This document shows, piece by piece, positions 11,530-53,851 of a stretch of DNA of 64,000 nucleotides. Position 1 is the stretch's first letter. Each line of letters begins with the position of its first letter. Position numbers and translations under genes: made by a program. This DNA comes from Babesia bigemina. Taxonomy: Eukaryota. A model generated the notes under the pieces. That model did no database searches. It was not told the DNA's origin and saw only the letters and a program-made list of their open reading frames with translations. The DNA is taken from NCBI RefSeq assembly GCF_000981445.1, contig NC_027218.1:1240001-1304000 (forward strand), given 5' to 3'.

Positions 11530-11647
11530 TTTTAAAGTTTTTTATATTCCATGATATAGTCAAAAGTGGCCTTCATCAGACACTTGAGATTTGAGTGATT
11601 TAGCCTGATCAGTTTTAGGCCTGCCAACGTAGTGTATGTCATGGCTT

Positions 11648-12781
11648 GTGCCTAGGGTCGGTTTGTGGCTTTGGCGGGGCTGCCGCCTCACGCTGAAATC
11701 GGTTGCGGGATCCACGTCGGTCCATTGCCGGACGTCACTGGTGCCATCCATGCGGGCATCCATCCAGTTTGGGCCAGATGGTCATCAACAGAGTTATAAT
11801 CATCTTGGTTTCATGTACCTCGTCACATAACTTATAACGATATAACGTGTCTGCTAGATGAAAGATGTCCGCTTCATAGCCTCGACCACGTCCCTGCATC
11901 TCCTCTTCTTGTATGCCCCGTCTCCACCGGGTTGCCTTCGTTGACAGTCCCGTTATCCACGGTAGTGAAGGCGTGATTTATACTATATACGTTGTAGTGT
12001 TCTTGTAGAGTATGCTCTCAACCCTCATGAGACTCCTGAGTTTGGCATGGCACTTTCCATCATTACTATAGTCCTCCACTTGCCCTTACTGCTATTCACT
12101 CATACCATCGCCTTTCAGCCAGATATATCCTAACTGTGCTTCACATTTACATCGGTAATCTTCCATATGGACGTCATATTTGCAGACATCATGCATCGAG
12201 GATTCCGTTCCCTGTAAACGCTGCGGAGGTAAAATGCCATTGCCCTTTCCGCTTCTCGATTACGGCATGCTCATATTCGTGTAGTAGCCACCCAGTCGCT
12301 CGAGTCACATTTGGGAATATCGTATTAGCATTATGTTAAAACCGTGCAGTGGCAGTGGGGTGGACCAGTAAGTGCGCAGAGGCAGTGTAGAATTTGATGC
12401 GAATATTAACTAGCAGCTTGCATCAACTATACCTGTTTCTTCCGGCGGTGGAACATTGGAGTGCAGTTTGGAGGCTTCAGGACGCCGCCGAAGTGGGCCA
12501 GAATTTCGAGCTGTCTGGGTGCTGGTGGTTGGGATTAGGTGAGCGAGGTGGATGCCAAATTCGTCATGATTTTCAAATACGCCCTTAATCGAGGACGCCC
12601 TTGAGTAATGTAGTTTGGAGCACTGAAAGAGGAGGTTGTCAGCCGTTCAGTGCGCATCGCATTTTTGCAGTGGAGTGGAGGTCTGCAGCCTTGAATTGCA
12701 TATGTAGTTCCGCAAAACGAATAATACTGTCAACTTCAGCTTCTAAACAATGGTGCCTAAGAAGCTTACTGACTGCCCGGA
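11648..12781 (+). repeat. Left arm of 1,134-bp inverted repeat (ves upstream region plus first 32 nt of CDS)
   Basis: Reverse complement of 28393-29526 with a constant offset (no indels); ORF-track peptides identical in both arms; first mismatch seen at ves codon 11 (GAA vs GAG). Confidence 0.95.
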
Positions 12782-15700
12782 AAATCTCCGGGAGGCCATC
12801 GACTGGCTGATCCAGGTTAGGCATGGTGGTGGTGGCAGTGATGGTCTTGGTGAGTTATCGAAAGCTTTGCAAAAGCTGATTGAGGAGGCTATTGAGAAGG
12901 CTTATACAACTAATGTCGGTGCGCTTCTCAAGATTCTCGATTCTGCCAAGTCTTACACCTGTTGTGAGGGTAAAGTAGCTGAAATTCGGAAACTTAAAGA
13001 TTCAAAAAATCTTACCCCTGAAACTTTTGAAAACCTTAAATCGAAATGTGAAGACATCAACAATTGCACTAAAAATCACTTAGATTCTTCCCAACAGAAA
13101 TCCTACGATGAGATTGAGTCCAAGTTGGAACAGCTTAAAAAGCTTGGAGATAGTCTTAATGGGTTCACCGACGAAAGGCAATGTAAAGACCTTTTAACGC
13201 ATCTATGTGATGGTCTTCAAACCTTCCTCGGCTTCAACCCTGACTCCAAAGGCTACGACGGCAAGGGTATTGTGTACTCCGACCTGGACAGGCTGTGTGA
13301 CGGGGTGATGGGATTTTTGTATCAAACCATGAAAATGATTGTAACTGATCCTAATGTAATAACGTATTATGATTCGTCATCTGAGTATGTAAAAATTTTA
13401 GAAAAGCATCTTGATAACGGCCATCATGGCTTTTCAATGATGGTTTCAGCCATGCTGGCTTGGCATGGGTATTATGAGAAGGAGTTTAGTAGTAGAGTGA
13501 AAGCAATTGTTGATAATGAAAATGGAAAATTAACAGCTTTGAGAGCCAATATTAAGACGAATATTAATGAGGTCGGGAAATTGAAGGATCTTAGCACTAA
13601 GCCCTTTGAAGTGGTTGTCGACGAATGGAAGGAAACTGTTACTAGGGGACTTGCCATATCAGTAAAAAATGCCGAGTCGGCGATTAATAATCTCGACAAA
13701 CCACTTAGAAATGAGATAATGGTAGAATTTGATAAGATTAAGATGCAGATTGATAAATTAAACGAGTCTACCGTCAGGGATGTAAAACAGCTCAACGATT
13801 TGGCGCGCCAGGTTAATTTCGATCTAAACGAGTTGAAGAAGAGTGTCTACTTTGCGATACATACACGTGTTGGGGATCTGCGTAAGAAGTTGACAGAGGA
13901 TTTTACTGCAATTAATGAAGAAATTAATACAGTCAGTGTTACTCTAGGACAATATGTAGAGGCCTTGAAGGTGTGGATTCAGAATGCTCAGTCATTGGTC
14001 GATAAAGCTATTCCGCAAATTGAAGCTATATTGAACGAGATTGATGATAACGGTTCAAAAGGTCGAAAATATCCTGCGACGATTAAAAAACAAGCCGGTG
14101 AATTGAAAAGAAAAGCAGATGCACTTTGGAGTGCAACAGGGGAAGTTAAAAGGGTTCTAAAACCATTAGGGCAAAATATTAGAAGCGCCGTTGACACATT
14201 AGAATCTGTGTATAAAAAGACTTTAAAAGACTTGCAACAGGCTGTGCAGTCTCAAGTTCACGAGGCGCAGAGGGTGCTTGGGGAGTTGGGAAGCAAAGTA
14301 AAAAGTGATTTGGGGAATGATATGTTCCAAAGACCTATTAAAGAGGAAATTGGGAAAGTCATGAGTGCTTTCAAAGGGGGAATCGGGAAAGCTCGGCAAG
14401 CTTCAGACTGGGCCGTAGAGATCGTGCAAGGATTCCGGGAAGGTTTGGCATATGATTACAATTCGGCGAATGATAGAAACACATGGCTATATAAGTGGGC
14501 TGATTCTACACAAAGTGATATACGCAATGTAGTAGAGAAATTAGGTGACTTGTCAAAATTCCGGGCGGTGCTTAATGCTCTGGAAAGTTCGACACATGAC
14601 GGAAAGAATTTCTTCGAAGTCATCACCGAAGATCTCTATAAGAAGCTTACGGAAGCGATCAATGCTATAAAAGGGGAATTGCCCAGAAGAATGTCTAATT
14701 ATAATAACCATGCTAAAATGGGCGGTGCAATTCATAATGCGATTGGGAAGGTCAAGGAAGATGTCAATGGTTTTTTCTACGTAGATGGTAGCAGAGAACA
14801 ACAGGTAAGGCAAGATAAACTTGAAGGTTATAACAGAAACGGTGTAGATGATGAAATCAATAAGATAGAATCCGAGGGCCTACAGCATTTCAAAAAATTC
14901 GACCAACCTGACAATGAAATTAAAAACAACACCTTCAATGAATTAAAATCTGCGATCACCTCCAACCTCGAGGGTCTAATCGAAGCTATAAAGCAGAATG
15001 CTGACCATAATGAAGACAACACAGGTATCAAGCAAAAATTGGAAGCGTTACAAAATACGTATTTCAAGCAGACCGAACATGTAAAAAATGATAGTATCTA
15101 CAAAATTTATGCAGATCTGGAAACTCTGCAGACTGTTAATTTAGCCCAACTGATAAGTATGGCCCAAACATTCCTTGTTGACACTATTCCGAAGCAGGCG
15201 AAAGAATGCATCACAGCAATAAAAAACCATCTCAAAGCCGAGGTCATTAAGACCGTTGAGAATATTAAAATGGATGCGCTGGAGCGATACATTGAGTCCA
15301 AAAGCCAGGAGCTTGGTGTATTTAAAAAATGCGTTGATAGGCGGTGTGATACTATCACAGCTATTATTGACGAAGATATTAAGAGGGGCATTAAAGGCCT
15401 GCTTGCGATCGTAAAACAACAACTGAGTGGTACAGCATTGCAAATTGCGGATCAAACCAAATTAGGTGATTTCCCTTCTAAAGTGCAATTTCTTCTAGAG
15501 GCGTTCTGGGGGTACGTAGGTGGCCAACTTACGGGGAATGATGATGATGTTCTTTCTGCATTCGTTGGAGTCAAAACCAAAATGACCACGTTGTTCACCG
15601 ACCTTACGCACTACAACCACGAATTTAAAAATAACCTACATGATTTTTCTAACGCACTCAGCAACTTAAAGCCGGAGCACTTCTGCGGTCAGTCGTCTCC

Positions 15701-17975
15701 ACTCCTCGACGTTTTCAAGAAAGGTTGCGAATCAATGATTGGCGAGTTGAGAAAGGCCTATGTGGCCGCGTATTCCGGTGCATTCTCGATAGACTGGAAA
15801 GGTCCGAAAACCGATGAAATATCCCAGAACGGCATTAACTGCGCCGAAATCTTCTTCACCATCCTCGTATTTATCTACAAGCATTTTATGACGCTTAACG
15901 AAAAGTGTGGTGAGAAAGGTGAATGGCTCGACAAAAAAATCTGCCTTTTGAACTCAACTAATGCGTACAACAGCCTGGGCGATTTTCTAGAGGAATGCGG
16001 ATTTCATGTCACAGAAAAGGAGGACACTCCAGACAATGAGTTGAGATGTCATGGAAATATGAAGGGTTCCAATATGATTCAGAGACTCACGCAAAAGCAG
16101 ATGGAGAGCACTGAAGAAATTAAGCATATCCAGAAGTGTTCGACAGATAAGATTGAAAAAAGTAAAAAACAATTCAATTTTTTCGACATTCTTCACTGTA
16201 TGTTCACCCACCTAGAAGAATATTACTCGCTGTGCCATATCGCAAATCCGTCATCGAAACAACCATGCTCCGTCTTCGAAATGCTGAATTGGCTGGCCGG
16301 TTTGCATTACACTGCTGTTTATCCAAAGTTGTTGCGCGCCGGTATCGAAAGCGTGTTTGTTAAGTCAGATAAGCAGAAGAATAAATCCATAGAGAGCCTT
16401 CAAGTCACAGTAGTTGACCAGGAATCCTTATCATTGGCTGCCTACCCCAACAACATAACATATTATAACGTCAAATCGGCAATTGAGCATATTTGTTCAA
16501 AGTCCTACATTGTTCTTACCTCCATTGTCGGCACTGGCAACTCGGCGACCACGTATGCTGTTAACTTTTGCACCAACTCCCTTGGATTAAAATATCCAAT
16601 CTCAGGCGAGGATTGCCTACATACGGTAATTGACATATGTCGTAAAGTAATCCCTCCACTTAGATTCTTGCAGACGCAATGTAAAATGAGTGCTCAGCAC
16701 GGTGGATGGGAGCAGTGTGGTTACGGCAAAGATGTGCCGTCAGCCAAATGGCCGTGTACAGAGAACGCAATTGACCAACCAACGTGCCAACCAACATCTC
16801 CATTAATGTCTTACTTAAATGACTGTCTACCTGGCCATTTACCTCACCTATTAACCAGCGTGGGATGTAAATCAGAATGTAAAACATGTCCTAGCGGGAA
16901 ACCCGGCATGCCATGTATCACTCCCCTTGGATTCAGGGGGTTCTCCGGATCTACATCTACGGGTAGAGACCTGTGTGACATCCTCAATGAATTACTTGAT
17001 GACGTGGACCTTTCAGCGTTGTTATGCGTGGTACCCAAGCCACCATCCACGTTACCGGAGCACTTCGGCTTTGCGTTGACACTTGTTCATGGCTGGTATG
17101 ATGGTGCCAAGAAAATCAAAAACAGTTTCCAGCGTCATGTATACGACGCCATCACGAAACAGTCGATTAGTCTATATCACGACCCCGGTGTACTGACAGA
17201 TGCACTGCGCAAAGCATACTGTTCGCAACCGCCAAACTGTGGAAACGAACACAAAAATGCGGAGCACTCTGACGTGTTTAGTTTGTCATTGAACAATTAC
17301 ACGAGACAATGTTCCGGTGAAAACCATTGCGCTCACTACATCTACAGTTTATCTTCCGACTCACATTATTACATCGCTAACAAGCACGCCAGCGTGTGTC
17401 TGTCATGGGCATTGTACTTACCATGGCAGTTTCACACTTACCTCAACTCTCTACTACAGGAATTGAAGGAGATCTTCTGCCGGGACTGGGAATGCTCCAA
17501 GTGTTTGCATGGCAAAAAATGCAAACCTGGACATCACGGAGTCATCCATACAAAAACGCAAAACTCCAGTTGCCAATGCGACTCTGTGGTACGCTGCAGG
17601 GGTGTATTACCGACGTTGTACAAATATGGCTTCACATTTGGTGACCCGTCAGCTTTGAATGATGTGCGAGATCCGAAGACTTGTTCCAACTTCTGCTCTC
17701 AATTGGAGAAAGTTATTAAATCGTCATACTTCACTGTCCTTTTCAATGAATGTGACAACTTCCTCTGGACCATCCGCCTCCCCTTCTCCTACCTCCTTCT
17801 CACCCTCTGGCTCCTGTCTCTGCTCTACCTCATCCACATCCTCATCATCCGCCTCGACCTGCTCCACATCAAATCGCATTTGCGTTCACCGTCATCACAT
17901 CGCATCGCTGCGCAATCACTACTCGCCGCCGCACGTGTTGGCAAACTTGCCAAGATATCGTACCTGCAAACTTAA
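12750..17975 (+). CDS. ves/VESA1-like variant erythrocyte surface antigen (1741 aa), copy 1
   Basis: N-terminal KKLTDCPENLREAIDWL, GYDGKGIVYSDLDRLCDG, AT-rich helical middle, Cys-rich C-terminal third, single TM and tail LHIKSHLRSPSSHRIAAQSLLAAARV; no signal peptide. Confidence 0.92.
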   Translation: MVPKKLTDCPENLREAIDWLIQVRHGGGGSDGLGELSKALQKLIEEAIEKAYTTNVGALLKILDSAKSYTCCEGKVAEIRKLKDSKNLTPETFENLKSKCEDINNCTKNHLDSSQQKSYDEIESKLEQLKKLGDSLNGFTDERQCKDLLTHLCDGLQTFLGFNPDSKGYDGKGIVYSDLDRLCDGVMGFLYQTMKMIVTDPNVITYYDSSSEYVKILEKHLDNGHHGFSMMVSAMLAWHGYYEKEFSSRVKAIVDNENGKLTALRANIKTNINEVGKLKDLSTKPFEVVVDEWKETVTRGLAISVKNAESAINNLDKPLRNEIMVEFDKIKMQIDKLNESTVRDVKQLNDLARQVNFDLNELKKSVYFAIHTRVGDLRKKLTEDFTAINEEINTVSVTLGQYVEALKVWIQNAQSLVDKAIPQIEAILNEIDDNGSKGRKYPATIKKQAGELKRKADALWSATGEVKRVLKPLGQNIRSAVDTLESVYKKTLKDLQQAVQSQVHEAQRVLGELGSKVKSDLGNDMFQRPIKEEIGKVMSAFKGGIGKARQASDWAVEIVQGFREGLAYDYNSANDRNTWLYKWADSTQSDIRNVVEKLGDLSKFRAVLNALESSTHDGKNFFEVITEDLYKKLTEAINAIKGELPRRMSNYNNHAKMGGAIHNAIGKVKEDVNGFFYVDGSREQQVRQDKLEGYNRNGVDDEINKIESEGLQHFKKFDQPDNEIKNNTFNELKSAITSNLEGLIEAIKQNADHNEDNTGIKQKLEALQNTYFKQTEHVKNDSIYKIYADLETLQTVNLAQLISMAQTFLVDTIPKQAKECITAIKNHLKAEVIKTVENIKMDALERYIESKSQELGVFKKCVDRRCDTITAIIDEDIKRGIKGLLAIVKQQLSGTALQIADQTKLGDFPSKVQFLLEAFWGYVGGQLTGNDDDVLSAFVGVKTKMTTLFTDLTHYNHEFKNNLHDFSNALSNLKPEHFCGQSSPLLDVFKKGCESMIGELRKAYVAAYSGAFSIDWKGPKTDEISQNGINCAEIFFTILVFIYKHFMTLNEKCGEKGEWLDKKICLLNSTNAYNSLGDFLEECGFHVTEKEDTPDNELRCHGNMKGSNMIQRLTQKQMESTEEIKHIQKCSTDKIEKSKKQFNFFDILHCMFTHLEEYYSLCHIANPSSKQPCSVFEMLNWLAGLHYTAVYPKLLRAGIESVFVKSDKQKNKSIESLQVTVVDQESLSLAAYPNNITYYNVKSAIEHICSKSYIVLTSIVGTGNSATTYAVNFCTNSLGLKYPISGEDCLHTVIDICRKVIPPLRFLQTQCKMSAQHGGWEQCGYGKDVPSAKWPCTENAIDQPTCQPTSPLMSYLNDCLPGHLPHLLTSVGCKSECKTCPSGKPGMPCITPLGFRGFSGSTSTGRDLCDILNELLDDVDLSALLCVVPKPPSTLPEHFGFALTLVHGWYDGAKKIKNSFQRHVYDAITKQSISLYHDPGVLTDALRKAYCSQPPNCGNEHKNAEHSDVFSLSLNNYTRQCSGENHCAHYIYSLSSDSHYYIANKHASVCLSWALYLPWQFHTYLNSLLQELKEIFCRDWECSKCLHGKKCKPGHHGVIHTKTQNSSCQCDSVVRCRGVLPTLYKYGFTFGDPSALNDVRDPKTCSNFCSQLEKVIKSSYFTVLFNECDNFLWTIRLPFSYLLLTLWLLSLLYLIHILIIRLDLLHIKSHLRSPSSHRIAAQSLLAAARVGKLAKISYLQT

Positions 17976-18365
17976 TCGTACTCACATTTGTCACTCTCAC
18001 CACCACTCACCTAACCCACTACCTAGCAACCCACCGCCTAACATAACACAATAACACATATCTGACCTAACACTTACTCAGCAATTTGGCAGTTATGTCA
18101 GTTCATCTATCCATAGTTTTGTGGTTTGAGATGTCGAGTTGTGAGTTACCGGTGACACGTGCCCCACGTCCTCCCATGGATTTAGTGGGCAGTGATGCCG
18201 GGTGATAGGCTACTGATGGAGACTGTTTACGAGTGCGGTGATATGTGAAACTGCGTCGTATGAAATGTGATTGTTTGGCGAGATGGCTATTATATACGTC
18301 CCTAGGAAATGAACGTTGACGGGGCAGTGACATGAAGGCCAGTGGACGGCGTAGTTAGGTGGCTT

Positions 18366-18827
18366 TGGTGGTAGCAGTGTAAATGAGAAGCACGTTAATC
18401 AAGTGATGTAGCTCAGTTAGGCACTCATTAAGGCATAGATGTAACAGTAGTATTAAGCGCTGGCTATGTTGTTTGGTCTGTGATGGATGGAGTTGACTCA
18501 ACGACTGACACCGGTTGCCCTGCATGCCACGGCCAGGATGGTATCAACATGCTTTAGCTGGGTCGTACTTCAGTTGTGAGAGCTACAAAGCCGTAATGTG
18601 GCTGGCTATTCGCGGGACGACGGGCACCTGGCTGATGTCGAAGCTGATGGTAGCTCAGTTGTCTGTCCTGAGGTGCGTGTCCATAAGTGGTTGGCGAGTG
18701 CTGCTTAGGTGATTGATATATGTTTGCAGGTTGAGGGGACTGGGAGCGGCAGTGGTACGTGTTGCAGTTGGTGAGTTATGCTTGAGTGATTGATATGTTT
18801 GCAGGTTGAGGGGACTGGAAGGGGAAG
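18366..18827 (+). promoter_or_regulatory. Shared upstream element / spliced 5' UTR of the Cys-rich small gene family
   Basis: Homologous to 22242-22520(-), 45604-46016(-) and about 55980-56325(+). Invariant TGCATGCCACGG; candidate introns 18673-18729 and 18755-18804 ending TTTGCAG/GTTGAGGGGA; GGGAAG immediately before the ATG. Confidence 0.6.
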
Positions 18828-19310
18828 ATGTCGGGAAGGGGCCTATTAGACTGTAAGTGTAACAAAAGCTGTACGGAGCGTGACTGTTATTGCTGTTACG
18901 TGTCTTGTGCAGGATGCACTAGAACGAGGTGTTATTTCTGTATGAAGTTTTACAGTCAGCGCGTGGGTGGAGAAGGGGAGTGCCATCCCGATGGATGTAA
19001 AGAGTGTAAGACACGCACATGTTATTGTTATTGTGGTCTCAAGAAAGGCTCTACTGCATCCAGTTCCCAACGTTCCCTCAGTCAACAGCATTCCCTTACT
19101 TACTCCAGTGCCGCCTCTGCCTCCGGTCCCGTCGCCTCCTCCCGTGAAGAGCATCCCACCCTCAGTCCACAGCTTTCCACCGGCGCCACCGCTGCCACCC
19201 CCGTCCCTTACATCATCGCCCCCGTTGCGCTCATCATCGTCGTCGTCTGCGTCATGATCTACTTCCGCATCCGGCCGTTCCACAGGGTGCGGTATCTACT
19301 GCGCAGCTGA
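18828..19310 (+). CDS. Small Cys-rich single-TM protein, family copy A (160 aa unspliced; possible second exon to 19486)
   Basis: 16 Cys in the first 70 aa, Ser/Pro/Ala stalk, TM PYIIAPVALIIVVVCVMIYF, basic tail RIRPFHRVR; three paralogues in the window. Confidence 0.8.
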   Translation: MSGRGLLDCKCNKSCTERDCYCCYVSCAGCTRTRCYFCMKFYSQRVGGEGECHPDGCKECKTRTCYCYCGLKKGSTASSSQRSLSQQHSLTYSSAASASGPVASSREEHPTLSPQLSTGATAATPVPYIIAPVALIIVVVCVMIYFRIRPFHRVRYLLRS

Positions 19311-19542
19311 TGACAATAACTTAATTAGAAACTGACATCTAATGTTCTAGACAGAGTAATGATTGCGTTGATGACCAATCACATGAGCAAGTTATCAGTT
19401 ACAGCTGCGATGACAGTGGTGACCAAGCAAATGACCAATGCCATGACCAAGGTGGTGGCCAAGCAGCTGACAAGAGTGGTGACTAAGAAGCTGACCTAGT
19501 GGCCGGCTAATTGAATATGTAACGTAATACATGATTTAATGT

Positions 19543-20445
19543 ATGACACACCTATATCATGACCCTCCTCCTCTCCCAAACCTTCAACCCCTGGACCCAA
19601 TAGGCCCAGCCACCGCCGACGTCTCTGTCAACTTCCCACCAATCGATAATCCGGAGTCTCTCCCAAACAGTTACGTGGATCCGTATATGCACGATGCGCA
19701 AGCCGTCGGTATGTGCATTGCCCCGTGGATGAAACAGGCAGAAACTTGAGCCTCCACCGACATCCCCGAGACTGAGCTGTTCCCTTCCCAGGCCCCGCGC
19801 ACTGTCCGGGATATGCTTACTTGGCTGGCTGGGCTTAGGAACCCAAAGCATCATAAGACTCTAGAGAAGTGTATTAAGAAGGCCTTTAGTGGTTTACATA
19901 ATGAGTCATCAGATCTTGCGCTCTCCGTCAACGGGTCTCACGTCCTCCCCCAACATGTATTCGATATACTCCAGCTTACCGCCATGTTTGCAGGTTCAGT
20001 GCTCACCGCCATCGCACCTAACTGGAGAGCTAGTGTTGCATCAAGAACTGTGAAGCCTAACTCTTCCACCCAGTCTGACGAGTTAGATTGCTCCGCCCTC
20101 CTCTGCCAGCTGCTTGACTACGTGTACGCCTGCCACCACCAGTTGCAGTTCCTGAAGGCGCAGTGTAAACGAGATAAACTAAGTGGTGGTTGGAAAAATG
20201 ATGAGTACGGCAGTGACATCACTTCTTCCAAGTCCCCCCTCCAGGCGTTCCTGACTGACGGCTGGGACTCCACCTTCAAAACTCACCCCTTCGACCCGTG
20301 CAACCTGTGCCTAAGGAGCCGCGTCAGGATGGGATTCAGGGACAGAGATTTACCGAGTAGTCAACAAACTGGCGACACCCTTTCTTCCATCCTCACTCCC
20401 AGCTGCGGAGGTGAGCAGCATGATTCGCTAGTCGACACGAAATAG
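19543..20445 (+). pseudogene. Internal fragment of a second ves subtype (ves1b-like)
   Basis: APRTVRDMLTWLAGL...QLQFLKAQC...SPLQAFLTD...RVRMGF is collinear with ves motifs; in-frame TGA at 19747; truncated after TPSCGGE; no ves N-terminus or TM. Confidence 0.8.
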
Positions 20446-20713
20446 TAATTGTCGCCATACGTTATTATATGTTGCATCGATATATATATTGCTGCAGTTG
20501 TCATAACGTATATTACGCCATATCTTACAGTGTCATGGTGCTCTACAAAAGTGTGAAGCGGGCATAACATCCGCGTACGGCCAATGATTGTCTAACGCAA
20601 CGCAGGCGAATTGATGTACAACAACCGTGTTAGTGATTGGATCAAATAATCAAATTGAAATTGGGTGTGGCATGGCTACAGTGGGGCTACGTGGACTCGG
20701 TGAGGCTATGCGG

Positions 20714-20929
20714 TTATTGGAGTTTAGGCTTGGAACCACGGAACCCGTCCCGTATTTGGCCGAATATGGTACCAAGACTCACATCATATTGTCTACCCGT
20801 GATGTATAGGACCAAGACGAGAAGGGCGGAGAAACCAATGAAGCCGGCAAAAGCAATTCCTAGAAATTTTAAGGCGCAGCCAGTTTTGCTACTACAATCG
20901 CTGCCTCCATTGCAGAAGCAACTACCCAT
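20714..20929 (-). CDS. 71-aa single-TM microprotein, second family copy 1
   Basis: MGSCFCNGGSDCSSKTGCALKFLGIAFAGFIGFSALLVLVLYITGRQYDVSLGTIFGQIRDGFRGSKPKLQ; paralogue at 53852-54034; GGGAAG-ATG context. Confidence 0.6.
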   Translation of the reverse strand: MGSCFCNGGSDCSSKTGCALKFLGIAFAGFIGFSALLVLVLYITGRQYDVSLGTIFGQIRDGFRGSKPKLQ

Positions 20930-21794
20930 CTTCCCTCGACTCACTCAACAACCAGCCTTCACAACAGTGAACAACGTGCCTAAAGCCTCGAGCACCCTCA
21001 GCCAACTGACGATTCACAATGACCATACCCCACCCCTATTATGTCGTCCACCTTGTGCTGGGGCAGCCGTGATTGCAGACCTCACAACGCTGACATATAA
21101 TGGGCGTACCCTCCCGCATGCGATAGTTAAACATGTCTTGATTGTTATTCAATGGTAGAGCAACTAACGATGTAGTGTCCACGAAAAGCGCCAAGTCTGT
21201 CTAACATCTGCCTTGATCCAGCCTGGTTATTCTGATGTGACCAACTGAACTAAGTCGCTTGCTTGATGTTTCTGATCGGCACAATGCTGCCACTGAGCAC
21301 GCCACATTACAGCACCTCTCACTCACATGCCACTTGCCAACCTAACAGATGGCCCAGCACGTCACATGGTGCGTCACCCATCGGGTGACGGACAGGATGA
21401 CCACCGGCGTAGTTCCACCTCCCTCTTGAGATTGGGTCACCAACCCCAACAAAGTAGCTAGTACGACGCCATGCCAGCAGATTTTCATTAACTGAATCTT
21501 GCAGGTATAGTGACGCTATACTAGAGTAGAGGGATAGGCGGTGCGTGAGGCGCAGGTTTTGCATCCGTGCTCAAACGCCTTATTTCAAGCACCATCCTCT
21601 GTGTGTCTGTAAGACGCATAAGCCACAAGCCATCAAGCAATATGAAAATGATGAAGACGATGATGGCAACGATGACGGCGGCGATGATGTAAGGGGCGGA
21701 GGTATGGTCACCTCACTGCTCATGTGATCGATCACCAACGCAATCATTACTTCGTCTACGACATTAGATGTAGTTGCCAGTTGCTTTATTGCGA

Positions 21795-22241
21795 TTAGCT
21801 GCGCAGTAGATACCGCACCCTGTGGAACGGCCGGATGCGGAAGTATATCATGACGCAGATGACGACGATGACGAGGGCGACGGCGGCGATGATGTAAGGG
21901 GCGGGGTTGGAAACGGCGGTAGACTGTCGACCGGTTTGGTGCTCTACACTCGGAAGAGAGGGGGAACTTGGGGCTTGGGATGTACGCTGTAGACTGGCGG
22001 ATTCCTGGGCACGGGCTTCGGCAGCTTGTTTAATTCTACAACAGTCACATGGACAACTGTCAGTGTTACAACCAACACATGCCGGAGAGTAGCACGGTTC
22101 TCCTCTCATGCGCGAAGAAGACAAATTGAAACATCGTAAACATCTTGATATTCTACATCCTGTGCAACAATAGGGACAACACTTACAGTGAGGTTTTTCA
22201 CATTTGTTATTACAACCACACGAGAAATCCCAATTACTCAT
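21795..22241 (-). CDS. Small Cys-rich single-TM protein, family copy B (148 aa unspliced; possible second exon to 21713)
   Basis: 18 Cys scaffold, stalk, TM APYIIAAVALVIVVICVMIYF, tail RIRPFHRVRYLLRS identical to copies A and D. Confidence 0.8.
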   Translation of the reverse strand: MSNWDFSCGCNNKCEKPHCKCCPYCCTGCRISRCLRCFNLSSSRMRGEPCYSPACVGCNTDSCPCDCCRIKQAAEARAQESASLQRTSQAPSSPSLPSVEHQTGRQSTAVSNPAPYIIAAVALVIVVICVMIYFRIRPFHRVRYLLRS

Positions 22242-23009
22242 CTTCCCGCTCCCACTCCCCTCAACCTGCAAACATCAATCACTTAAGCAAGCACTCACCA
22301 ACTGCACTCATGAACCACGCACCTCGGCAAGGACACTGACCATCTCCCATCGGCGCTACGATAGCATCCATGTGACCGCCATCCACCGCAACGCCAGTCA
22401 CATCACCACGATGCAGCTATCACAATTGAAGTTGTGCTTAGTTAACGCATGTGGCTGGTGTCCTGTCCGTGGCATGCAGGTGAACCGGTGCCAGTTGAGC
22501 AGTCAACTGTATCCATCACAGACCGTGCAACGGTGCGACCGCTGCTTCTAAATGTCATAACATTTTCGTCATAATGAGTGCATTAGTGAACCACATCACT
22601 TGGTTAATATGGTCGTTATTTACACTGTTACCATCAATGTCACAACGACGCAGTCCACTGGCCATCACGTCACTGTCCCGGCGACATTCCATCCGTGGAG
22701 ATAACATAATATCTATCACGCCAAACAATCACGTTTCACACCACGCGCTTTCACCTGTCACAACACTCGTCATAAGCCTACATCGATCGCTTATAACCCA
22801 GCATCACTGCCAACTATAACCATGGGAGAGCGTGGACACATTCCACAGCTAACTCACAACTCAACATCCCAGAACACGAACCTATAAATGCACTAACAAC
22901 ATTAACTGCCAATTGATGAGTAGGCATTAGGTAATATATTCGTGTGGCTATTAGGTTAGGCGGTGGGTTGCTGGGTAGTGAGTTAGGTGAGTGGCGGTGA
23001 GGTGATTCA

Positions 23010-26000
23010 TCAAGGTTGCAGGTACGATATCTTGGCAAGTTTGCCAACGCGTGCTGCCGCCAACAGTGATTGAGCGGCGATGCGGTGTGATGAGGGTGAG
23101 TGCAAGTGAGATTTGATGTGGAACAGGTCGAGGAGGATGACCATGATGTGGATGAGGTAGAGGAAAGAGAGGAGCCAGAGGGTGAGAAGGAGGTAGGAGA
23201 AAGGTTCTCTGATTTTCCATAGATATTCTGGAATCGTTCTATAAACTAATTTGGCAAGCGCAGCTCCTACTTGCGTCTCATCGTTAAGGATGCTCTTCAA
23301 CGCGCTGCAGAAATCTTTGCACGTACGCTTTTTAGCGCCACTGTCTGACAAGCCGCTCAGTCTGTGCTGGCTTCCAAAAGTGAACCCGTACTTATACAGC
23401 GTTGGATGGGTGTTTTGGCATTCAACGATTGAATGGCATTTGTCATCGTGATTTTTGCTTTCGAGCTGCTTCACGGTTGCTTGCGTATTATTGGACTTCA
23501 GTAAATCATAGTACCCTTTCACTTCGCAATCTTCAACACAGCTTTTGTCGTGGCATCTCGTACCAGCGGTGTCGCAATTCTTGCAGCACTCGTCGAGCAA
23601 CGCCTTAAGCAATGCATAGAATGTTCCAGTTATGTATACAACCCACGACAGATATTGCTTGTTATTGGAGGCCGCGAAAATACTATACAGGTTCAAGTTG
23701 ATAGATTGAACGTACATCCCACACGTCGCCTCGTCGCTGGACTCACACGACGTTATGCTAAACAGATCACCGTTTTTATGGGTACCGTCTGTATTACGGT
23801 GGCTGCTGCTGGCGAAAAGTGAAGGGAGATTGAACTCGTATTCGTTCCCGAAATAAGCCTCCTTGACGGCAGTTTTGAAGGCGACGCGCTTATGCGTCAG
23901 GACTTCCTGCTTCGGCGGTGAAATACCATTCCAGTTTGCCAGGTAACCGTAGAAGAAACCGAAGATATCTCCAAGTGTCTGAGGCGGCGTCTTCAGCAGA
24001 CATTTTGTAAAAGCGCAAAACCTGGTGAGTGGTTTGCTGATGTTACCACAGAGTTGGAAAACAGCATCCCTAAGATGCGTACCGTTTTGTGTATGGGATG
24101 CCACAATGCCAATGTCCCTGAAACCCATCGGCGTTTTACACGGTTTGCCAAAGTGGTTAGAGACAGCACATTCTAGCTTGCAGCCTGGAGCCTTGAATTG
24201 ATGCGGTAAGAAACCCTGGAGACCATCTTCCAGGAACGACTGCAGCGGAGATTTCACTCCGCACGTAGGGTGCCGGTCGCAGTTTTGCCCAGCATTTTGG
24301 TCACCATTTTGGTCACCATTTTGGTTAGCGATTTGGTCAGCTACTTGGGGGCATGTTTGGTTGCCACATTGCTTCCTGTTGCAGTTCCAAGCCGACCCGG
24401 CAACGTGCTGCCCGTATTGACAATCACGCCACCCTCCACTCTCCGGACCGTTCTGACAAATCTTGTATATAAAAGCAAGTTGCTCATACACTCTATTCGA
24501 TACGTCGACGAGCATGTCAAAGCACGCACCTGCACTGCTTGGATAAGTGATGTTACTCTGATTAGTGTAGAAGTCAACGGCATATACACCATCCGCGTGC
24601 CCGTGGCCCTGGATGGCAACCAGCACGTCGACGGAGTAGTTGCAAACACTGCGAAGCTCATCGCCTAATTCCTTAGCGTTCAGGTTCGTCTCAGTGGATT
24701 CAAACTTGTAAGCGGATACATCGTTTGCTTTCGCATCTTCAGGTTTCTTGAACAGGCCTTTTAAGTACGCAACTAGTTTGTCATACATCGGATTGTGCCG
24801 CAGTCCCGTGAGCCATTGCAGCATCTGATATACGTTGCACGGTGCTTTCGGCGCTGGAATGTGGCGAAGGTGAGATGTCTTAAAGTAGATGATAAGGTGC
24901 TCGTGGAAGAAGGTAAGTACGTCAATAATGGTAATCTCTGTAGCACCTTGGCTGCTTCTTTCAGTGGACTTACTGTTCTTCTGCTTCCACTCTGTTAGGA
25001 TGCTATTTGTATGTTTAAGATCCTTGTTTAGTAGGTCACTTGCTATTTTCTCTGCATTGAAGTCATTTTTATTTCTCAACTCCCCCTCGTGGGAATTTTC
25101 CGCTGTGGATACCCTGTAACCGTTCCTTTGGAAAAAAGCTCCTAGCGGATTTGTCATATTTTTTTTGTTTACATTAATCATTTGCAAATTAATTTTCCTG
25201 CTTTTTTGTTTGCCGCATCCGATCTTCAACCCATCCAACTCGTGGTACAATGTCTCTAAAATCGTTAAAAACACCTTCGACAAATTTTTGCCATTATTCG
25301 TCAATTTACCTTCATTATTAACCAATTGATCCAAATTAATTGTCTCCCTATGCCCATCATACCCATTCACATACGCCCGCTCCAACTCCTTGACAAACCC
25401 CTCCAGCCCCGCTCTAACCGCATCGAGCAGCTCCGGGTGCCGGGGGTTGGAGAAGTGGGCGGGGGATAAAACGCTGAGAGAGGAGGAGAGAGAGGAGAGG
25501 AGGGTGGTGAAGCGGGTGTCGAAGTTATAAACCTTTTCATTCTGCTTTTTCAGATGACGTAGCAAGTCATAAAGTCTCTCTTTCAGATCCTTAACTTTTT
25601 CGGACTCCTTAGTTTGCAGCATTATCGACGTGTTTCCATGCGTTTGGTATGGTTGAGTCATAACGTGGCTTTCTACGTATTGTAGGATAGTATAAGCATA
25701 GGTTGTTAAACCCTCTACCAAATACGTAACTTTCGGAGCATCATTTTTAGTTTGAACAACTGCAGCTTTTTTCAGTTCAGTAAGCAAATTAGCGTCATTT
25801 GAACCACGCAACTCGAAGCCATATATTCTCCCCAAAAACCCTTTCAGGCCCTTTTCTCTGTCGTCTTTCATGATTTTCTCAACCTCATATCTTTGAGTTT
25901 CCAGAAAAGTAGTCAGAGATGTCAGCTCCTTTTGCTTGTGTTCCGCATATAATTGTTGCGCTTTGTTTTTTATGTTGGTGGATACCGACATAACTGCTTC

Positions 26001-28424
26001 ATCGACGTAATTTTTGAGAAATCCGATACAATCATCAGCATCAGTCTGGATTTTCTTGTCGAAGATACCAGCTTCTCTTATAATTCCCGCCAGAGAAGTA
26101 AGATCAGTGCTGCCTAGATTACCGATAATATTTTCAATACGCGTCTGGATTCCTTTAACGGACTTTTTAGCATCTCCGTATAACGTATTGGTCATCATAT
26201 GATTTAGGCTTTTCAACTTTTGCTTGACTCCGGTGTCATTATCGACTTTCCCGGCAAGCTTCTCGATTTTTTTGCAGAGTTGTCGAAAGGTGTTCTCGAT
26301 TACACTGGCTCTGTCTATTATCGTGGTTTCAGCCTTTTTAGCGGCTTCAACAAGCGCCCTTGCCTTATTTGTAATAGGTTCTAGATGGACACTCACGATT
26401 TGATCAACAGCCTGTTGCATCTCCAAAATACCATTCGTTATAGCAGCGTTGAAAAGGTTAAACAGGTGTGTGTCGAAGTTCTTTCCTTCGGCGGCCTTTT
26501 TTCCAATATCCGCTGTAATCCCCTTGATAACCATGTTGGGGATAACTCCCGGTATACTATTCCAAATTGCTCTGGCACTGTAGAGCTGGTTCAAGACTTG
26601 TTCTATTTTAGGGCCAACGTCGTCTCTGCCATCTAGTTCTACCGTAGCATCTAGCGCCTTAGATACTCCATTAACACTCCACAACTCAGTATCTTTCAAA
26701 GCTTTGAGACCACGGATCTTAGCATGTTCCCAAGAACCGCCTGTAGCATCCACGGCATGCTGTAACGCTTTCTTCAACTTATCCATATATCCCTCTACGT
26801 TCATTTCGATTGCTGTTGTTAGCGCGGAAATCTTACCACCCAAATTCCATACCTCTTCACCGTCACCCTTATTAAAACCATCCAAAGACTTAGGTACTAA
26901 TTTTTCAACTTGCTGTTGTGTCTCTTTAAGCTTCTTTACCGCGCAGTCTCCTGTTCCATTTTCATCCTGACCCTTAATTTGTTTGATTACACGATCATAT
27001 TCACCCTTCAACTGCTTGAATTGCTGATGCAGCTCCGCAGCTTTGGTTTTGATTTCTTCGACCGCCATACCGATTTCGCGGGGCTTTTCTTCAGCTGGTT
27101 CGATTTCGTTTATAATTTCATCGACCTGATTTTCAATCACTTTGATAAAATTAGTCGCCACCCCAATCCACCTTGCCAAGTCACTCTTAACATCGTCCAA
27201 CATAGTTCTAAGTTGCTCCAATGGAGCCTTAATATTCTTTTCAAACGTTCCTTGCAAATTTTCTCTAAGAGTAATTATATTTTGAAGTATCTCACCATTC
27301 AGAATCTTTTGCAGCTCTTCGAGCTGGCCATTAACCGTCCCATTCAAATCCGCTAAATCCCTGTTCTCACAATTTTTTCTAAAACCTTCAACTACACACC
27401 TTATCAATTTCATCGGCATCTCCAACTTCTTCTTAAGCTCTGAGTCCAACTTCTCTTTGGCTTCTTCGACCTCACTCAATTTCTCAACATACTCTCCGGC
27501 TCGCTGAGTCCACTCGCTAAATTGCGTTTTGAGAGGCTTCCCTTTTTGATTATCCCAATTTATTTTAGTATCTGCAAATAAATCATTCAACTCACTTAAT
27601 GCTTTAGTTACCTTTCTCGTTCTCCTCTTCAAACCAATATCGTACCACATGAGGCCACGATGAACGCTCCCGATGGCCTGAGAAAATCCCGAAACTCCAA
27701 GCCCATTACCAATGGTACCTTTTAAAGCCTCGATACTACTGGTGATATTGTTATTGTAATGCTTTAACAACGGTTCACTGCCCTCTATACATTTAAACAA
27801 AAACACCATCACGGCATCACAGAGCCTGTCCAGGTCGGAGTACACAATACCCTTGCCGTCGTAGCCTTTGGAGTCTTTGTTGAAGCCGAGGAATTTTTCG
27901 AGGCCATCACATAAATGCGTTAAAACATTCTCACTATTCTTTTTTTCAAGTTCAGTAGCAAATGTCTGAAGCTTACCAACAATTTCTCTCCGCTGCTTAA
28001 TCTCAGCCAAACCCTTATCCCTCTCCTCCTGAGGGAGGTGATGGGTATTAGCACAGCCATTTTTAGAGGTTTCGGCTTTTTTGATTTTAGCGTTTAGGTC
28101 ATCTTTTTTAGATTTATCAGCGTTTTCAGGTTCTTTCAATTTCTTATTGGCTTCATCAATTTTAGTCTGCTGCTCCTGACAAAAGGGCTTGACAGGGGGA
28201 CTACCAGAGGAGGGCTGATCAGAAGGGTTTCCACGGCAAATGAGCTTGGATTCGCGTTCATCAAGGGACTTAGTAGCCTTCCCAATTGCCTCCTCAATCA
28301 ACTTTTTCAAAGCTTCAGACAACTTGGTAAGACCATCCTCACCACTCCCATGCCTTACCTGGATGAGCCAGTCGATTGCCTCCCGGAGATTCTCCGGGCA
28401 GTCAGTAAGCTTCTTAGGCACCAT
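23010..28424 (-). CDS. ves/VESA1-like variant erythrocyte surface antigen (1804 aa), copy 2
   Basis: Same N-terminal, GIVYSDLDRLCD, TM and tail motifs as copy 1; highly divergent middle. Confidence 0.92.
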   Translation of the reverse strand: MVPKKLTDCPENLREAIDWLIQVRHGSGEDGLTKLSEALKKLIEEAIGKATKSLDERESKLICRGNPSDQPSSGSPPVKPFCQEQQTKIDEANKKLKEPENADKSKKDDLNAKIKKAETSKNGCANTHHLPQEERDKGLAEIKQRREIVGKLQTFATELEKKNSENVLTHLCDGLEKFLGFNKDSKGYDGKGIVYSDLDRLCDAVMVFLFKCIEGSEPLLKHYNNNITSSIEALKGTIGNGLGVSGFSQAIGSVHRGLMWYDIGLKRRTRKVTKALSELNDLFADTKINWDNQKGKPLKTQFSEWTQRAGEYVEKLSEVEEAKEKLDSELKKKLEMPMKLIRCVVEGFRKNCENRDLADLNGTVNGQLEELQKILNGEILQNIITLRENLQGTFEKNIKAPLEQLRTMLDDVKSDLARWIGVATNFIKVIENQVDEIINEIEPAEEKPREIGMAVEEIKTKAAELHQQFKQLKGEYDRVIKQIKGQDENGTGDCAVKKLKETQQQVEKLVPKSLDGFNKGDGEEVWNLGGKISALTTAIEMNVEGYMDKLKKALQHAVDATGGSWEHAKIRGLKALKDTELWSVNGVSKALDATVELDGRDDVGPKIEQVLNQLYSARAIWNSIPGVIPNMVIKGITADIGKKAAEGKNFDTHLFNLFNAAITNGILEMQQAVDQIVSVHLEPITNKARALVEAAKKAETTIIDRASVIENTFRQLCKKIEKLAGKVDNDTGVKQKLKSLNHMMTNTLYGDAKKSVKGIQTRIENIIGNLGSTDLTSLAGIIREAGIFDKKIQTDADDCIGFLKNYVDEAVMSVSTNIKNKAQQLYAEHKQKELTSLTTFLETQRYEVEKIMKDDREKGLKGFLGRIYGFELRGSNDANLLTELKKAAVVQTKNDAPKVTYLVEGLTTYAYTILQYVESHVMTQPYQTHGNTSIMLQTKESEKVKDLKERLYDLLRHLKKQNEKVYNFDTRFTTLLSSLSSSLSVLSPAHFSNPRHPELLDAVRAGLEGFVKELERAYVNGYDGHRETINLDQLVNNEGKLTNNGKNLSKVFLTILETLYHELDGLKIGCGKQKSRKINLQMINVNKKNMTNPLGAFFQRNGYRVSTAENSHEGELRNKNDFNAEKIASDLLNKDLKHTNSILTEWKQKNSKSTERSSQGATEITIIDVLTFFHEHLIIYFKTSHLRHIPAPKAPCNVYQMLQWLTGLRHNPMYDKLVAYLKGLFKKPEDAKANDVSAYKFESTETNLNAKELGDELRSVCNYSVDVLVAIQGHGHADGVYAVDFYTNQSNITYPSSAGACFDMLVDVSNRVYEQLAFIYKICQNGPESGGWRDCQYGQHVAGSAWNCNRKQCGNQTCPQVADQIANQNGDQNGDQNAGQNCDRHPTCGVKSPLQSFLEDGLQGFLPHQFKAPGCKLECAVSNHFGKPCKTPMGFRDIGIVASHTQNGTHLRDAVFQLCGNISKPLTRFCAFTKCLLKTPPQTLGDIFGFFYGYLANWNGISPPKQEVLTHKRVAFKTAVKEAYFGNEYEFNLPSLFASSSHRNTDGTHKNGDLFSITSCESSDEATCGMYVQSINLNLYSIFAASNNKQYLSWVVYITGTFYALLKALLDECCKNCDTAGTRCHDKSCVEDCEVKGYYDLLKSNNTQATVKQLESKNHDDKCHSIVECQNTHPTLYKYGFTFGSQHRLSGLSDSGAKKRTCKDFCSALKSILNDETQVGAALAKLVYRTIPEYLWKIREPFSYLLLTLWLLSFLYLIHIMVILLDLFHIKSHLHSPSSHRIAAQSLLAAARVGKLAKISYLQP
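24285..24345 (-). repeat. 12-bp in-frame tandem repeat in ves copy 2 (DQIANQNGDQNGDQNAGQN)
   Basis: TTTTGGTCACCA units visible on the + strand. Confidence 0.75.
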
Positions 28425-29526
28425 TGTTTAGAAGCTGAAGTTGACAGTATTATTCGTTTTGCGGAACTACATATGCAATTCAAGGCTGCAGACCTCCACT
28501 CCACTGCAAAAATGCGATGCGCACTGAACGGCTGACAACCTCCTCTTTCAGTGCTCCAAACTACATTACTCAAGGGCGTCCTCGATTAAGGGCGTATTTG
28601 AAAATCATGACGAATTTGGCATCCACCTCGCTCACCTAATCCCAACCACCAGCACCCAGACAGCTCGAAATTCTGGCCCACTTCGGCGGCGTCCTGAAGC
28701 CTCCAAACTGCACTCCAATGTTCCACCGCCGGAAGAAACAGGTATAGTTGATGCAAGCTGCTAGTTAATATTCGCATCAAATTCTACACTGCCTCTGCGC
28801 ACTTACTGGTCCACCCCACTGCCACTGCACGGTTTTAACATAATGCTAATACGATATTCCCAAATGTGACTCGAGCGACTGGGTGGCTACTACACGAATA
28901 TGAGCATGCCGTAATCGAGAAGCGGAAAGGGCAATGGCATTTTACCTCCGCAGCGTTTACAGGGAACGGAATCCTCGATGCATGATGTCTGCAAATATGA
29001 CGTCCATATGGAAGATTACCGATGTAAATGTGAAGCACAGTTAGGATATATCTGGCTGAAAGGCGATGGTATGAGTGAATAGCAGTAAGGGCAAGTGGAG
29101 GACTATAGTAATGATGGAAAGTGCCATGCCAAACTCAGGAGTCTCATGAGGGTTGAGAGCATACTCTACAAGAACACTACAACGTATATAGTATAAATCA
29201 CGCCTTCACTACCGTGGATAACGGGACTGTCAACGAAGGCAACCCGGTGGAGACGGGGCATACAAGAAGAGGAGATGCAGGGACGTGGTCGAGGCTATGA
29301 AGCGGACATCTTTCATCTAGCAGACACGTTATATCGTTATAAGTTATGTGACGAGGTACATGAAACCAAGATGATTATAACTCTGTTGATGACCATCTGG
29401 CCCAAACTGGATGGATGCCCGCATGGATGGCACCAGTGACGTCCGGCAATGGACCGACGTGGATCCCGCAACCGATTTCAGCGTGAGGCGGCAGCCCCGC
29501 CAAAGCCACAAACCGACCCTAGGCAC
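28393..29526 (-). repeat. Right arm of 1,134-bp inverted repeat
   Basis: Reverse complement of 11648-12781. Confidence 0.95.
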
Positions 29527-29708: not shown

Positions 29709-29732
29709 GCCTCCACGCCATGGCGTGGAGGC
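29709..29732. repeat. 24-bp perfect palindrome GCCTCCACGCCATGGCGTGGAGGC
   Basis: Read directly; self-reverse-complementary, GC-rich in AT-rich surroundings. Confidence 0.95.
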
Positions 29733-51447: not shown

Positions 51448-52570
51448 TGTTACGAAACGATCGATGATGGTGTATTTACTTTTTAAAGGCAACATGCATT
51501 TCGAGGTTGCAGATCACCTACCCCTCTGCAAAAATGCGCTACGCACTGTACGTCTAACAAACTCCTCTCTCAGTGCTCCCAACTACATTACTCAAGCATC
51601 TACCCGACTGAGGGCGTCTTTGATATTCACGACAAAACTAGCATCCACCTCGCTCACCTAATCCCAACCACCAGCGCCCAGACAGCTCGAAATTATAATC
51701 CACTTAGGAGGTGGCGTCACTCCCCCAAATACAGCCCTATGTTCAACTTCCTTAAGAAACAGCTAGAGGGGATGCAAGCTGCGTGCTAATATTCGGATCA
51801 AATTCGATGCCGCTTCTCCTCAACTACTGGTCCACCCCACTGCCACTGCACGGTTTTAACGTAATACTAATACGGTATTCACACAATGCGACTCTAGTAA
51901 CTGGGCGACGATTACACGAATACAAGCATGCTCTAATCTAGAAGCGGAAAGCGCAATGGCAATTTACCTCTGCATCCCTTACAGGGAACGGGATCTTCGA
52001 TACGTGATGGATGAGAATGTGACCTCAATATGGAAGATTACTGATGTGACTGTGTAGCACAGTTAAGATGTATCTAGCTGAAAGGCGATGGTATGAGTGA
52101 AGAGCAGTTAGGGCAAGTGGAGGACTATAGTAATGATGGAAAGTGCCATGCCAAACTCAGGAGTCTCACGAGGACTGAGAGCATGCTCTACCGGAAGACA
52201 ACATCGTAGATAGTATACAAAAGCCTTCACAACCGTGGAGAATGGGACTGTCAACTAAGGCAACCTGGTGGAGACGGGCATACAAGAAGAGGAGATGCAG
52301 GGACGTGGTTGAGGATATGAAGCGGAGAGCTTTCATCTACCGGAATAGTTATATCGTTATCAGTTATGTGACGAGGTACATGAAACCAAGATAAGATTAT
52401 AACTTTGTGGATGACCTATCTTTCCAGACAAGGTGAATTTCATTTTGGCTGACACCAGTGACGATCGGCAACGGACCGACGTGAAACCAGCAGCCAACAA
52501 CAGCGTGAGGCAGTAGCCTTTCAAATCGAATACCGGCTCTAGGCACGTAGCCACACAGCACACTATATGA
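51448..52570 (-). promoter_or_regulatory. Diverged third copy of the ~1.1-kb ves upstream region
   Basis: Collinear with 28425-29550, with many substitutions but near-invariant blocks (CTGGTCCACCCCACTGCCACTGCACGGTTTTAAC; GGGCAAGTGGAGGACTATAGTAATGATGGAAAGTGCCATGCCAAACTCAGGAGTCTCA). Confidence 0.75.
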
Positions 52571-53593: not shown

Positions 53594-53851
53594 TAATTAT
53601 AGCTATAAGCGGTAATATGGTGCTTTGTGGTACAGTATTGATTAAATGTATTAGGGCGTGGTCCTAAGTGTCATGGTGTACAAGAAAATTATGAAGCAGC
53701 AATAACAGCATCGCAAGACCACTGGTTATACAACAGGCTTTATGTGACCATATGCACAACAACCGTGTTAATGATTGGATCAAATAATCAAATTGAGATC
53801 GGATGTGACATGGCTACAGTGAGACTATGTGGACTGGGTGAGACTATGAGA

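What the first reader, a model, noticed from the sequence alone, without database searches (positions are those of the whole stretch)
11648..29526. 17.9-kb cassette bounded by a perfect 1.13-kb inverted repeat: candidate invertible antigen switch
Seen: arms 11648-12781 and 28393-29526 appear identical and indel-free, each covering the ves upstream region and the first 10 codons. The two ves genes they lead into are highly divergent, and a third upstream copy (51448-52570) is clearly diverged. The outer flanks are asymmetric: only ~120 bp to the previous stop on the left, ~1.7 kb of AT-rich intergenic DNA with a palindrome on the right. Inference: crossover between the arms would flip the 15.6-kb interior without breaking either ORF, swapping which ves plus microprotein unit sits next to the long flank. 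Known ves1 switching in B. bovis involves head-to-head pairs, in situ switching and segmental conversion; this pair is tail-to-tail.
Basis: partly seen in the sequence, partly recalled or inferred. Interest (0 to 1): 0.8.

Follow-up and report, generated by a model that had tools for sequence, protein, structure and literature searches.

The report
Freshly copied Babesia antigen-gene front ends
Two surface-antigen genes of a cattle blood parasite carry an identical 1.1-kb front end pointing in opposite directions, likely left by a recent copying event of a kind seen repeatedly in this gene family; the DNA between them could flip, but nothing found shows that it does or that flipping would change which gene is used.

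Summary
The repeat is real in the assembly: 11648-12781 and 28393-29526 match at 1134 of 1134 bases, and they lead into two 34%-identical Babesia bigemina ves1b-type genes arranged tail-to-tail. A crossover would leave both reading frames intact. The switch reading is not supported. The perfect tract sits inside older homology on both sides and stops abruptly. Elsewhere the two units are no closer to each other (78%) than to a third copy. Long identical blocks are routine in this family: 17 of 121 relatives share blocks of 300 or more identical residues with another relative. Each arm holds the whole conserved upstream element except its outer ~18 bases, so both genes would keep the same likely promoter after a flip. 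No centromere-like or telomeric sequence lies nearby; the long right flank leads into an ordinary neighbouring gene. Best reading: one recent ectopic gene conversion that incidentally made an invertible segment (0.65). Rivals: a slowly flipping, repeatedly homogenised repeat (0.15), an assembly artefact (0.12), a programmed switch (0.06). No long reads were available, so orientation is untested.

The parts
11648..12781 (.). Left arm of the perfect inverted repeat (1102 bp upstream + 32 nt of ves A coding sequence); likely conversion tract
   Evidence: 0 mismatches in 1134
28393..29526 (.). Right arm of the perfect inverted repeat (upstream + 32 nt of ves B coding sequence)
11630..12749 (+). 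ves1b family upstream element of ves A; its outer edge is shared with copies B and C; likely holds promoter and 5' UTR (inferred)
   Evidence: alignment; identical runs of 59, 36, 35, 31 and 31 bp with copy C
12750..17975 (+). ves A, single-ORF ves1b-type gene, 1741 aa, hydrophobic C-terminal segment
17976..18827 (+). Conserved 3' spacer of unit A; holds an ~110-nt tract nearly identical to unit C's spacer
18828..19310 (+). Cys-rich microprotein ORF with C-terminal hydrophobic segment (unit A)
19752..21065 (.). Block with a ves-like coding remnant (+, ~19790-20445) and a small hydrophobic ORF (-, 20714-20929); 75% copy at 52903-54170
21795..22241 (-). Cys-rich microprotein ORF (unit B)
22242..23009 (-). 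Conserved 3' spacer of unit B (77.9% to A, 77.5% to C)
23010..28424 (-). ves B, single-ORF ves1b-type gene, 1804 aa
28425..29545 (-). ves1b family upstream element of ves B
29709..29732 (.). Perfect 24-bp palindrome in the right flank, outside the repeat; no role shown
9070..11529 (+). Left neighbour, 819-aa gene ending 118 bp before the left arm (points toward ves A)
31206..33812 (+). Right neighbour, conserved piroplasm gene (best hit named 'chromosome segregation protein' in B. caballi), head-to-head with ves B; start and end approximate
46396..52565 (-). ves C (46396-51447, 1683 aa) and its upstream element, the in-window outgroup

Best explanation
The identical arms are likely the scar of one recent ectopic gene conversion, in which the upstream element and first ten codons of one ves1b gene were copied over the already homologous element of its inverted neighbour 15.6 kb away. 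Shown: the tract is perfect, begins and ends inside older homology, and joins two otherwise unrelated-looking ves bodies. Inferred: a break in one copy was repaired from the other, starting and ending in conserved patches (the outer motif near 11648 and the conserved start of the coding region); the direction of copying is unknown. The result is a segment that homologous recombination could invert as a rare accident, but since each gene would keep the same upstream element, an inversion is predicted to change little. Expression is expected to follow the epigenetic in situ switching known from B. bovis, not orientation (inferred from a related species).
For: Tract embedded in homology on both sides: ~18 nt outside, ~120 nt inside. 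No gradient: the 45 nt just inside the tract are 91% A-B, 89% A-C, 87% B-C; the 3' spacers are 77.9% A-B, 78.8% A-C, 77.5% B-C, so A and B are not preferred partners. A second, short tract links A with C instead (83 bp perfect, ~110 nt near-identical, B and D differ). Family background: among 121 ves1b-like proteins, 12 pairs involving 17 proteins share 300-821 identical residues; in the 10 of 12 pairs aligned, the parts before the block are 27-73% identical (one pair has none), one pair lies on two different chromosome-scale contigs, and another pair shares only its first 91 residues, like A and B. Recency: 0 of 1134 gives divergence under 0.27% (95% bound), against 3-6% between the window and run X1 in coding pieces. 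Both arms carry G at 11929, where copy C and all 12 X1 contigs covering the site carry A. Jackson et al. 2014 (PMC4066756, sections 21-26 read) report that 0-3.3% of BbigVes1b loci hold orthologous sequence between strains and attribute this to conversion. Mack et al. 2020 (PMC7485966, passages) say crossover appears rare in B. bovis.
Against: 1134 bp is ten times the mean B. bovis segmental conversion tract (109 bp; PMC7485966, passages), and those tracts were measured in coding sequence, so this is not the standard process. Eleven of the 12 long-block pairs include a small contig and could be haplotypes of a mixed isolate or assembly products. Identical protein blocks are not identical DNA. 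A single genome cannot separate one event from repeated homogenisation that always resets the same tract. No reads of the source isolate were found, so an artefact is not excluded. The promoter and transcription start were not mapped.
Confidence: 0.65

Rival explanations
1. A standing inverted repeat that is homogenised again and again and flips slowly, giving a neutral inversion polymorphism among strains, like the 24-kb flip/flop region of Saccharomyces chromosome XIV.
For: Size and geometry suit it (1.13-kb arms, 15.6-kb interior, frames intact after a flip). In run X1 the left junction also runs into the element's edge (contig covering 11322-11664), so an element may sit at this place in another strain. 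Jackson et al. report that ves loci coincide with inversion breakpoints between species (PMC4066756, section 21).
Against: No nested older tracts and no extra A-B similarity in the other inverted homologous parts. ves1b loci turn over fast between strains (PMC4066756, Table 2), and X1 has no cover over 25638-27626 of ves B (a hole in contigs proves little).
Confidence: 0.15
2. Assembly artefact: two similar but non-identical upstream copies were merged or polished to one consensus, or the interior was oriented arbitrarily.
For: The published assemblies of this species in PMC4066756 (methods passages) used 8x capillary reads with short-read polishing, or 76-base Illumina reads; capillary reads are usually shorter than 1134 bp (recalled). 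The X1 contig at the left junction stops fitting after 11664, its last 20 letters unlike the arm, as expected if the true left copy were different.
Against: Typical paralogues differ by 17%, too much to be merged; a mis-join would need two wrong joins at short patches. The window has no N. Even arms 99% alike would still be a young repeat. The X1 result fits a recent conversion equally well.
Confidence: 0.12
3. A programmed flip/flop antigen switch: recombination between the arms moves ves A or ves B to an active side (head-to-head with the housekeeping gene on the right) and the other to a damped side (just downstream of the left gene), like Ogataea mating-type inversion.
For: Perfect arms that end just inside the coding regions; frames intact after a flip. 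The two sides differ in context: a terminating gene 118 bp away on the left, a divergent gene and a 24-bp palindrome on the right. The Ogataea system has no known site-specific recombinase either (PMC5720833, passages), so the lack of one here is not fatal.
Against: Both sides carry the same 1102-bp upstream sequence, which holds every conserved non-coding block shared with copy C. No telomeric repeats and no 2-kb window under 37.9% GC, the lowest lying inside ves C. A two-state switch adds little to a family of about 80 ves1b genes (PMC4066756). The identity is explained by ordinary family dynamics.
Confidence: 0.06

Closest known systems
BbigVes1b family and its turnover by gene conversion (Jackson et al. 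2014, PMC4066756; abstract, sections 21-26 and methods passages read)
   Same: Both genes are full-length members by similarity (36% over the length to P0003, a protein the paper lists as a co-dominant VESA1B); solo genes at an internal site between housekeeping genes; mosaic exchange among paralogues.
   Different: The sections read deal with coding sequence and positional orthology; they describe no identical upstream arms or invertible segment.
Segmental gene conversion in B. bovis ves1 (Mack et al. 2020, PMC7485966, passages; review PMC6630957, passages)
   Same: A patch copied between paralogues, bounded by shared homology; the A-C tract of 83-110 bp matches the known size.
   Different: The arm is 1134 bp, mostly non-coding, and lies at a tail-to-tail pair, not at a head-to-head locus of active transcription.
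Saccharomyces chromosome XIV flip/flop region (Salzberg et al. 2022, PMC9731477; abstract and two sections read)
   Same: Inverted repeat made of gene-family sequence, kept alike by homogenisation, flanking a segment of similar size.
   Different: There the 4-kb repeats are homogenised across a genus and both orientations are documented; orientation was stable over ~53,800 mitoses. Here neither conservation nor a second orientation is shown.
Ogataea polymorpha flip/flop mating-type switch (Hanson et al. 2017, PMC5720833; passages)
   Same: Identical kb-scale arms (2 kb there) around a 19-kb segment with an alternative gene at each end.
   Different: There a centromere silences one end and inversion is induced; here no such landmark was seen and no inversion is shown.

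Membership tests
BbigVes1b | Full-length similarity to a documented VESA1B protein | tested here: met
   ves A vs P0003: 36% over 1858 columns; P0003's source name is listed as VESA1B in PMC4066756 section 23. ves B and C are 33-36% to A and each other.
BbigVes1b | Conserved VESA C-terminus with one hydrophobic (transmembrane) segment | tested here: met
   Seen in all three translations and shared with relatives; no transmembrane predictor was run; Pfam gave no VESA match.
BbigVes1b | Expression on the infected red cell surface | not testable with these tools
   No reads or localisation data.
B. bovis-type locus of active transcription | Head-to-head ves pair sharing a bidirectional promoter | tested here: not met
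   A and B are tail-to-tail; their outer neighbours are non-ves genes.
B. bovis segmental gene conversion | Short tract (mean ~109 bp) | tested here: not met
   Arm is 1134 bp; the separate A-C tract (83-110 bp) does fit.
B. bovis segmental gene conversion | Shared homology at both tract ends | tested here: met
B. bovis segmental gene conversion | Non-reciprocal, recipient is the transcribed gene | not testable with these tools
   Direction and expression unknown.
Flip/flop inversion switch (Ogataea type) | Identical kb-scale inverted repeat around alternative genes | tested here: met
Flip/flop inversion switch (Ogataea type) | Silencing domain (centromere or telomere) beside one arm | tested here: inconclusive
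   No telomeric repeats, no strongly AT-rich 2-kb stretch in the window; B. bovis centromeres are described as AT-rich ~3-kb regions (PMC2034396, passage). Composition is only a proxy; chromatin was not seen.
Flip/flop inversion switch (Ogataea type) | Both orientations occur within a clone | not testable with these tools
   Only short contigs of another strain were found; none spans an arm.
Flip/flop inversion switch (Ogataea type) | Expression depends on orientation | not testable with these tools
   No expression data.
Homogenised inversion polymorphism (Saccharomyces XIV type) | Arms alike within each strain while diverging between strains | tested here: inconclusive
   X1's left junction departs from the arm after 11664; its right copy was not seen.
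Bacterial inverton | Site-specific recombinase gene and short crossover sites | tested here: not met
   No recombinase family among the 20 and 11 ORFs scanned in Pfam (overlapping sets, a subset of the 125 frames, covering the main ORFs of the cassette); arms are 1.1 kb.

The most novel reading that the evidence does not exclude
The cassette is a eukaryotic flip/flop antigen switch: recombination between promoter-bearing arms moves one of two divergent VESA1b plus microprotein units to an active chromosomal side, the first inversion-based antigenic variation in an apicomplexan.
Probability: 0.06. Interest if true: 0.85.

Novelty: new member of a known kind. Interest (0 to 1): 0.27.

Why it matters
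On the best reading it is a clean snapshot showing that ves1b conversion reaches kb length and overwrites upstream regulatory DNA, not only coding patches, and that such events can create the inverted repeats that would explain why ves loci mark inversion breakpoints between Babesia species. It also gives a ready test: two ves genes with identical upstream DNA in different surroundings show whether ves1b choice depends on promoter sequence or on position. If the switch reading were true it would add a new mechanism of antigenic variation; four searches of the held library that included inversion terms (listings only) showed no such report for Babesia.

Tried and rejected
No whole genome is held for the window, so identical upstream pairs could not be counted genome-wide; protein blocks served as a proxy. 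Run search: 4 runs listed, best share 0.12; no RNA holder listed. Laying contigs: X1 gave 1409 short pieces, X3 none, X4 one, X2 could not be read; no piece spans an arm. Four opposite-strand joints in X1 (17982/22991, 18388/22519, 18759/21906, 18818/21906; one contig each) lie in multi-copy 3' spacers and were read as paralogue mosaics, not as inversions. The lack of X1 cover over 25638-27626 is a hole in contigs and was not used as proof. The right junction was not examined in other-strain data, which leaves the direction of copying open. Metagenome scan with the ves A N-terminus: 264 pattern matches, 0 confirmed. Earlier findings: none in three look-ups. My early note that the right copy is native and the left derived was dropped after the gapped alignment showed homology beyond both arms. 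A composite-transposon reading was rejected: no target-site duplication is visible at the element edges and the same edge occurs at unit C (by eye). A centromere in the right flank was rejected on composition. The B. bovis promoter paper PMC3294438 is not held. ESM Atlas hits for the microprotein were all under 0.9, leads only. The three supplementary files of PMC4066756 were listed but not opened; they may bear on whether these loci are conserved between strains or expressed.

Full report
Observation. The two arms, 11648-12781 and 28393-29526, are exact reverse complements over 1134 bp with no gap; the next longest perfect repeat in the window is 83 bp. Each holds 1102 bp upstream of an ATG (12750 +, 28424 -) and 32 coding bases. 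At the 83% identity of the third copy, chance identity is about 1e-92. The other stated facts hold: proteins 34% identical, third upstream copy 82.9%, 118 bp to the left stop and about 1.68 kb to the right neighbour, and a perfect 24-bp palindrome at 29709-29732. The right flank is 39% GC, no lower than another intergenic stretch and close to the ves genes themselves.

Identity of the genes. The named hits among the 120 listed of 217 are Babesia bigemina or B. ovata proteins at 30-44% identity. ves A aligns along its length (36%) to P0003, which Jackson et al. list as a co-dominant VESA1B protein, so A, B and C are ves1b-type. Each unit runs: ~1.12-kb upstream element, single-ORF ves1b, ~0.8-kb conserved spacer, Cys-rich microprotein. 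Units A and B face each other with a ves-like remnant block between them. Neither has a head-to-head ves partner. The left neighbour ends beside the left arm; the right neighbour begins ~1.7 kb from the right arm and points away, so the flank asymmetry is a 3' end on one side and a likely promoter region on the other.

Anatomy of the tract. The upstream element has one outer edge shared by all three copies (about 11630, 29545, 52565). The perfect tract starts ~18 nt inside that edge and ends in the conserved start of the coding region, with diverged homology beyond both ends. That is how a conversion tract looks. There is no gradient: the next 45 nt are 41 of 45 alike between A and B, 40 of 45 between A and C, 39 of 45 between B and C; over ~120 nt A-B is 85.6% against 80.5% and 83.3%; the 3' spacers are 77.9%, 78.8% and 77.5%. 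A has also exchanged with C: an 83-bp perfect, ~110-nt near-identical tract in the spacer where B and D differ.

Family background. Among 121 long ves1b-like proteins (the 120 listed hits plus ves B; 7260 pairs), 12 pairs involving 17 proteins share 300-821 identical residues, and 25 pairs share 100 or more. I aligned 10 of the 12: outside the block they are 27-73% identical before it and 46-94% after it, and many blocks run to one end of the protein. One pair lies on two chromosome-scale contigs (702 residues); the rest include small contigs and may be haplotypes or assembly products. One further pair shares just its first 91 residues and is 39% identical afterwards, the closest parallel to A and B. 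The window's three ves proteins share no block over 46 residues with any hit. Jackson et al. (PMC4066756, sections 21-26 read) found 0-3.3% of ves1b loci orthologous between strains and attribute this to conversion.

Other-strain data. Only one useful run was found, as short contigs about 95% alike. It covers the middle of ves A at single-copy depth (2.5-4.7 in most bins) and the arm at summed depth 38-48, as expected of a multi-copy element. One contig runs from the left gene to 11664 and its last 20 letters do not fit the arm. All 12 contigs covering 11929 carry A, as does copy C, whereas both arms carry G, so the arms share a private change and were copied from one another recently: under 0.27% divergence against 3-6% between strains. 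This cannot tell one event from repeated homogenisation or from an artefact, and no piece spans an arm.

Would a flip matter? A crossover in the arms leaves both frames intact. But each position offers the same 1102 bp upstream, which includes all long runs conserved with copy C (59, 36, 35, 31, 31 bp) and splice-like signals suggesting a 5' UTR intron (inferred, not mapped). A switch would therefore need a position effect from outside the arms, as in Ogataea, where a centromere silences one end of a 19-kb segment (PMC5720833, passages). No telomeric repeats occur and the lowest 2-kb GC value, 37.9%, lies inside ves C. Readthrough from the left gene or a shared promoter on the right remains possible and untested. 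In B. bovis, crossover is described as rare and solo ves genes can be activated in situ (PMC7485966, passages). In Saccharomyces a comparable repeat-bounded segment did not flip in ~53,800 mitoses (PMC9731477, section read).

Artefact. Published assemblies of this species used capillary or short reads (PMC4066756, methods passages), which are generally shorter than the arm (recalled), so consensus identity and interior orientation need read-level checking. Merging of 83%-identical copies is unlikely, hence 0.12.

Verdict. Real repeat, ordinary likely cause: one recent long ectopic conversion between neighbouring ves1b upstream elements (0.65), leaving a passively invertible segment. A programmed switch is not excluded but has no positive evidence (0.06). 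Four literature searches with inversion terms (listings) showed no inversion-based ves switching; most subscription papers are not searched. Interest 0.27.

Noticed in passing
18828-19310 +, 21795-22241 -, 45238-45603 -, 56326-56814 +: A Cys-rich microprotein ORF (121-162 aa, 16 invariant cysteines in the four copies, hydrophobic C-terminal part) follows each of the three full ves1b genes at ~0.8 kb, with a fourth beside a ves1b fragment. All 25 homologues found are B. bigemina hypothetical proteins, no Pfam match above cut-off, and one literature search showed no paper devoted to them. A possible ves1b-linked partner family, in a species reported to lack smORF.
   Followed up: partly
18411-18493 and 45889-45971: 83-bp perfect (about 110-nt near-identical) tract shared by the 3' spacers of units A and C only; a conversion of the size known from B. 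bovis.
   Followed up: yes
29709-29732: Perfect 24-bp palindrome, the only one of this size in the window; 0 in 60 simulated windows. Role unknown.
   Followed up: partly
19752-21065 and 52903-54170: Duplicated block (75%) with a ves-like coding remnant and a 60-71 aa hydrophobic ORF on the opposite strand; the second copy lies directly outside the upstream element of ves C, head-to-head with it.
   Followed up: partly
11630, 29545, 52565: The ves1b upstream element ends at the same position in three different surroundings, suggesting the unit moves or is homogenised with a fixed boundary.
   Followed up: no
56849-57133 + and 45011-45127 -: Short ves1b C-terminal fragments follow two of the microprotein genes; the first is preceded by a 21-bp tandem repeat.
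   Followed up: no
18704-18836: The splice-acceptor-like stretch before the unit A microprotein is duplicated with 75-bp spacing.
   Followed up: no
P0026 and P0057: Two ves1b-like proteins on different chromosome-scale contigs share their last 702 residues exactly but are 36% identical before that; a third shares the last 463.
   Followed up: partly
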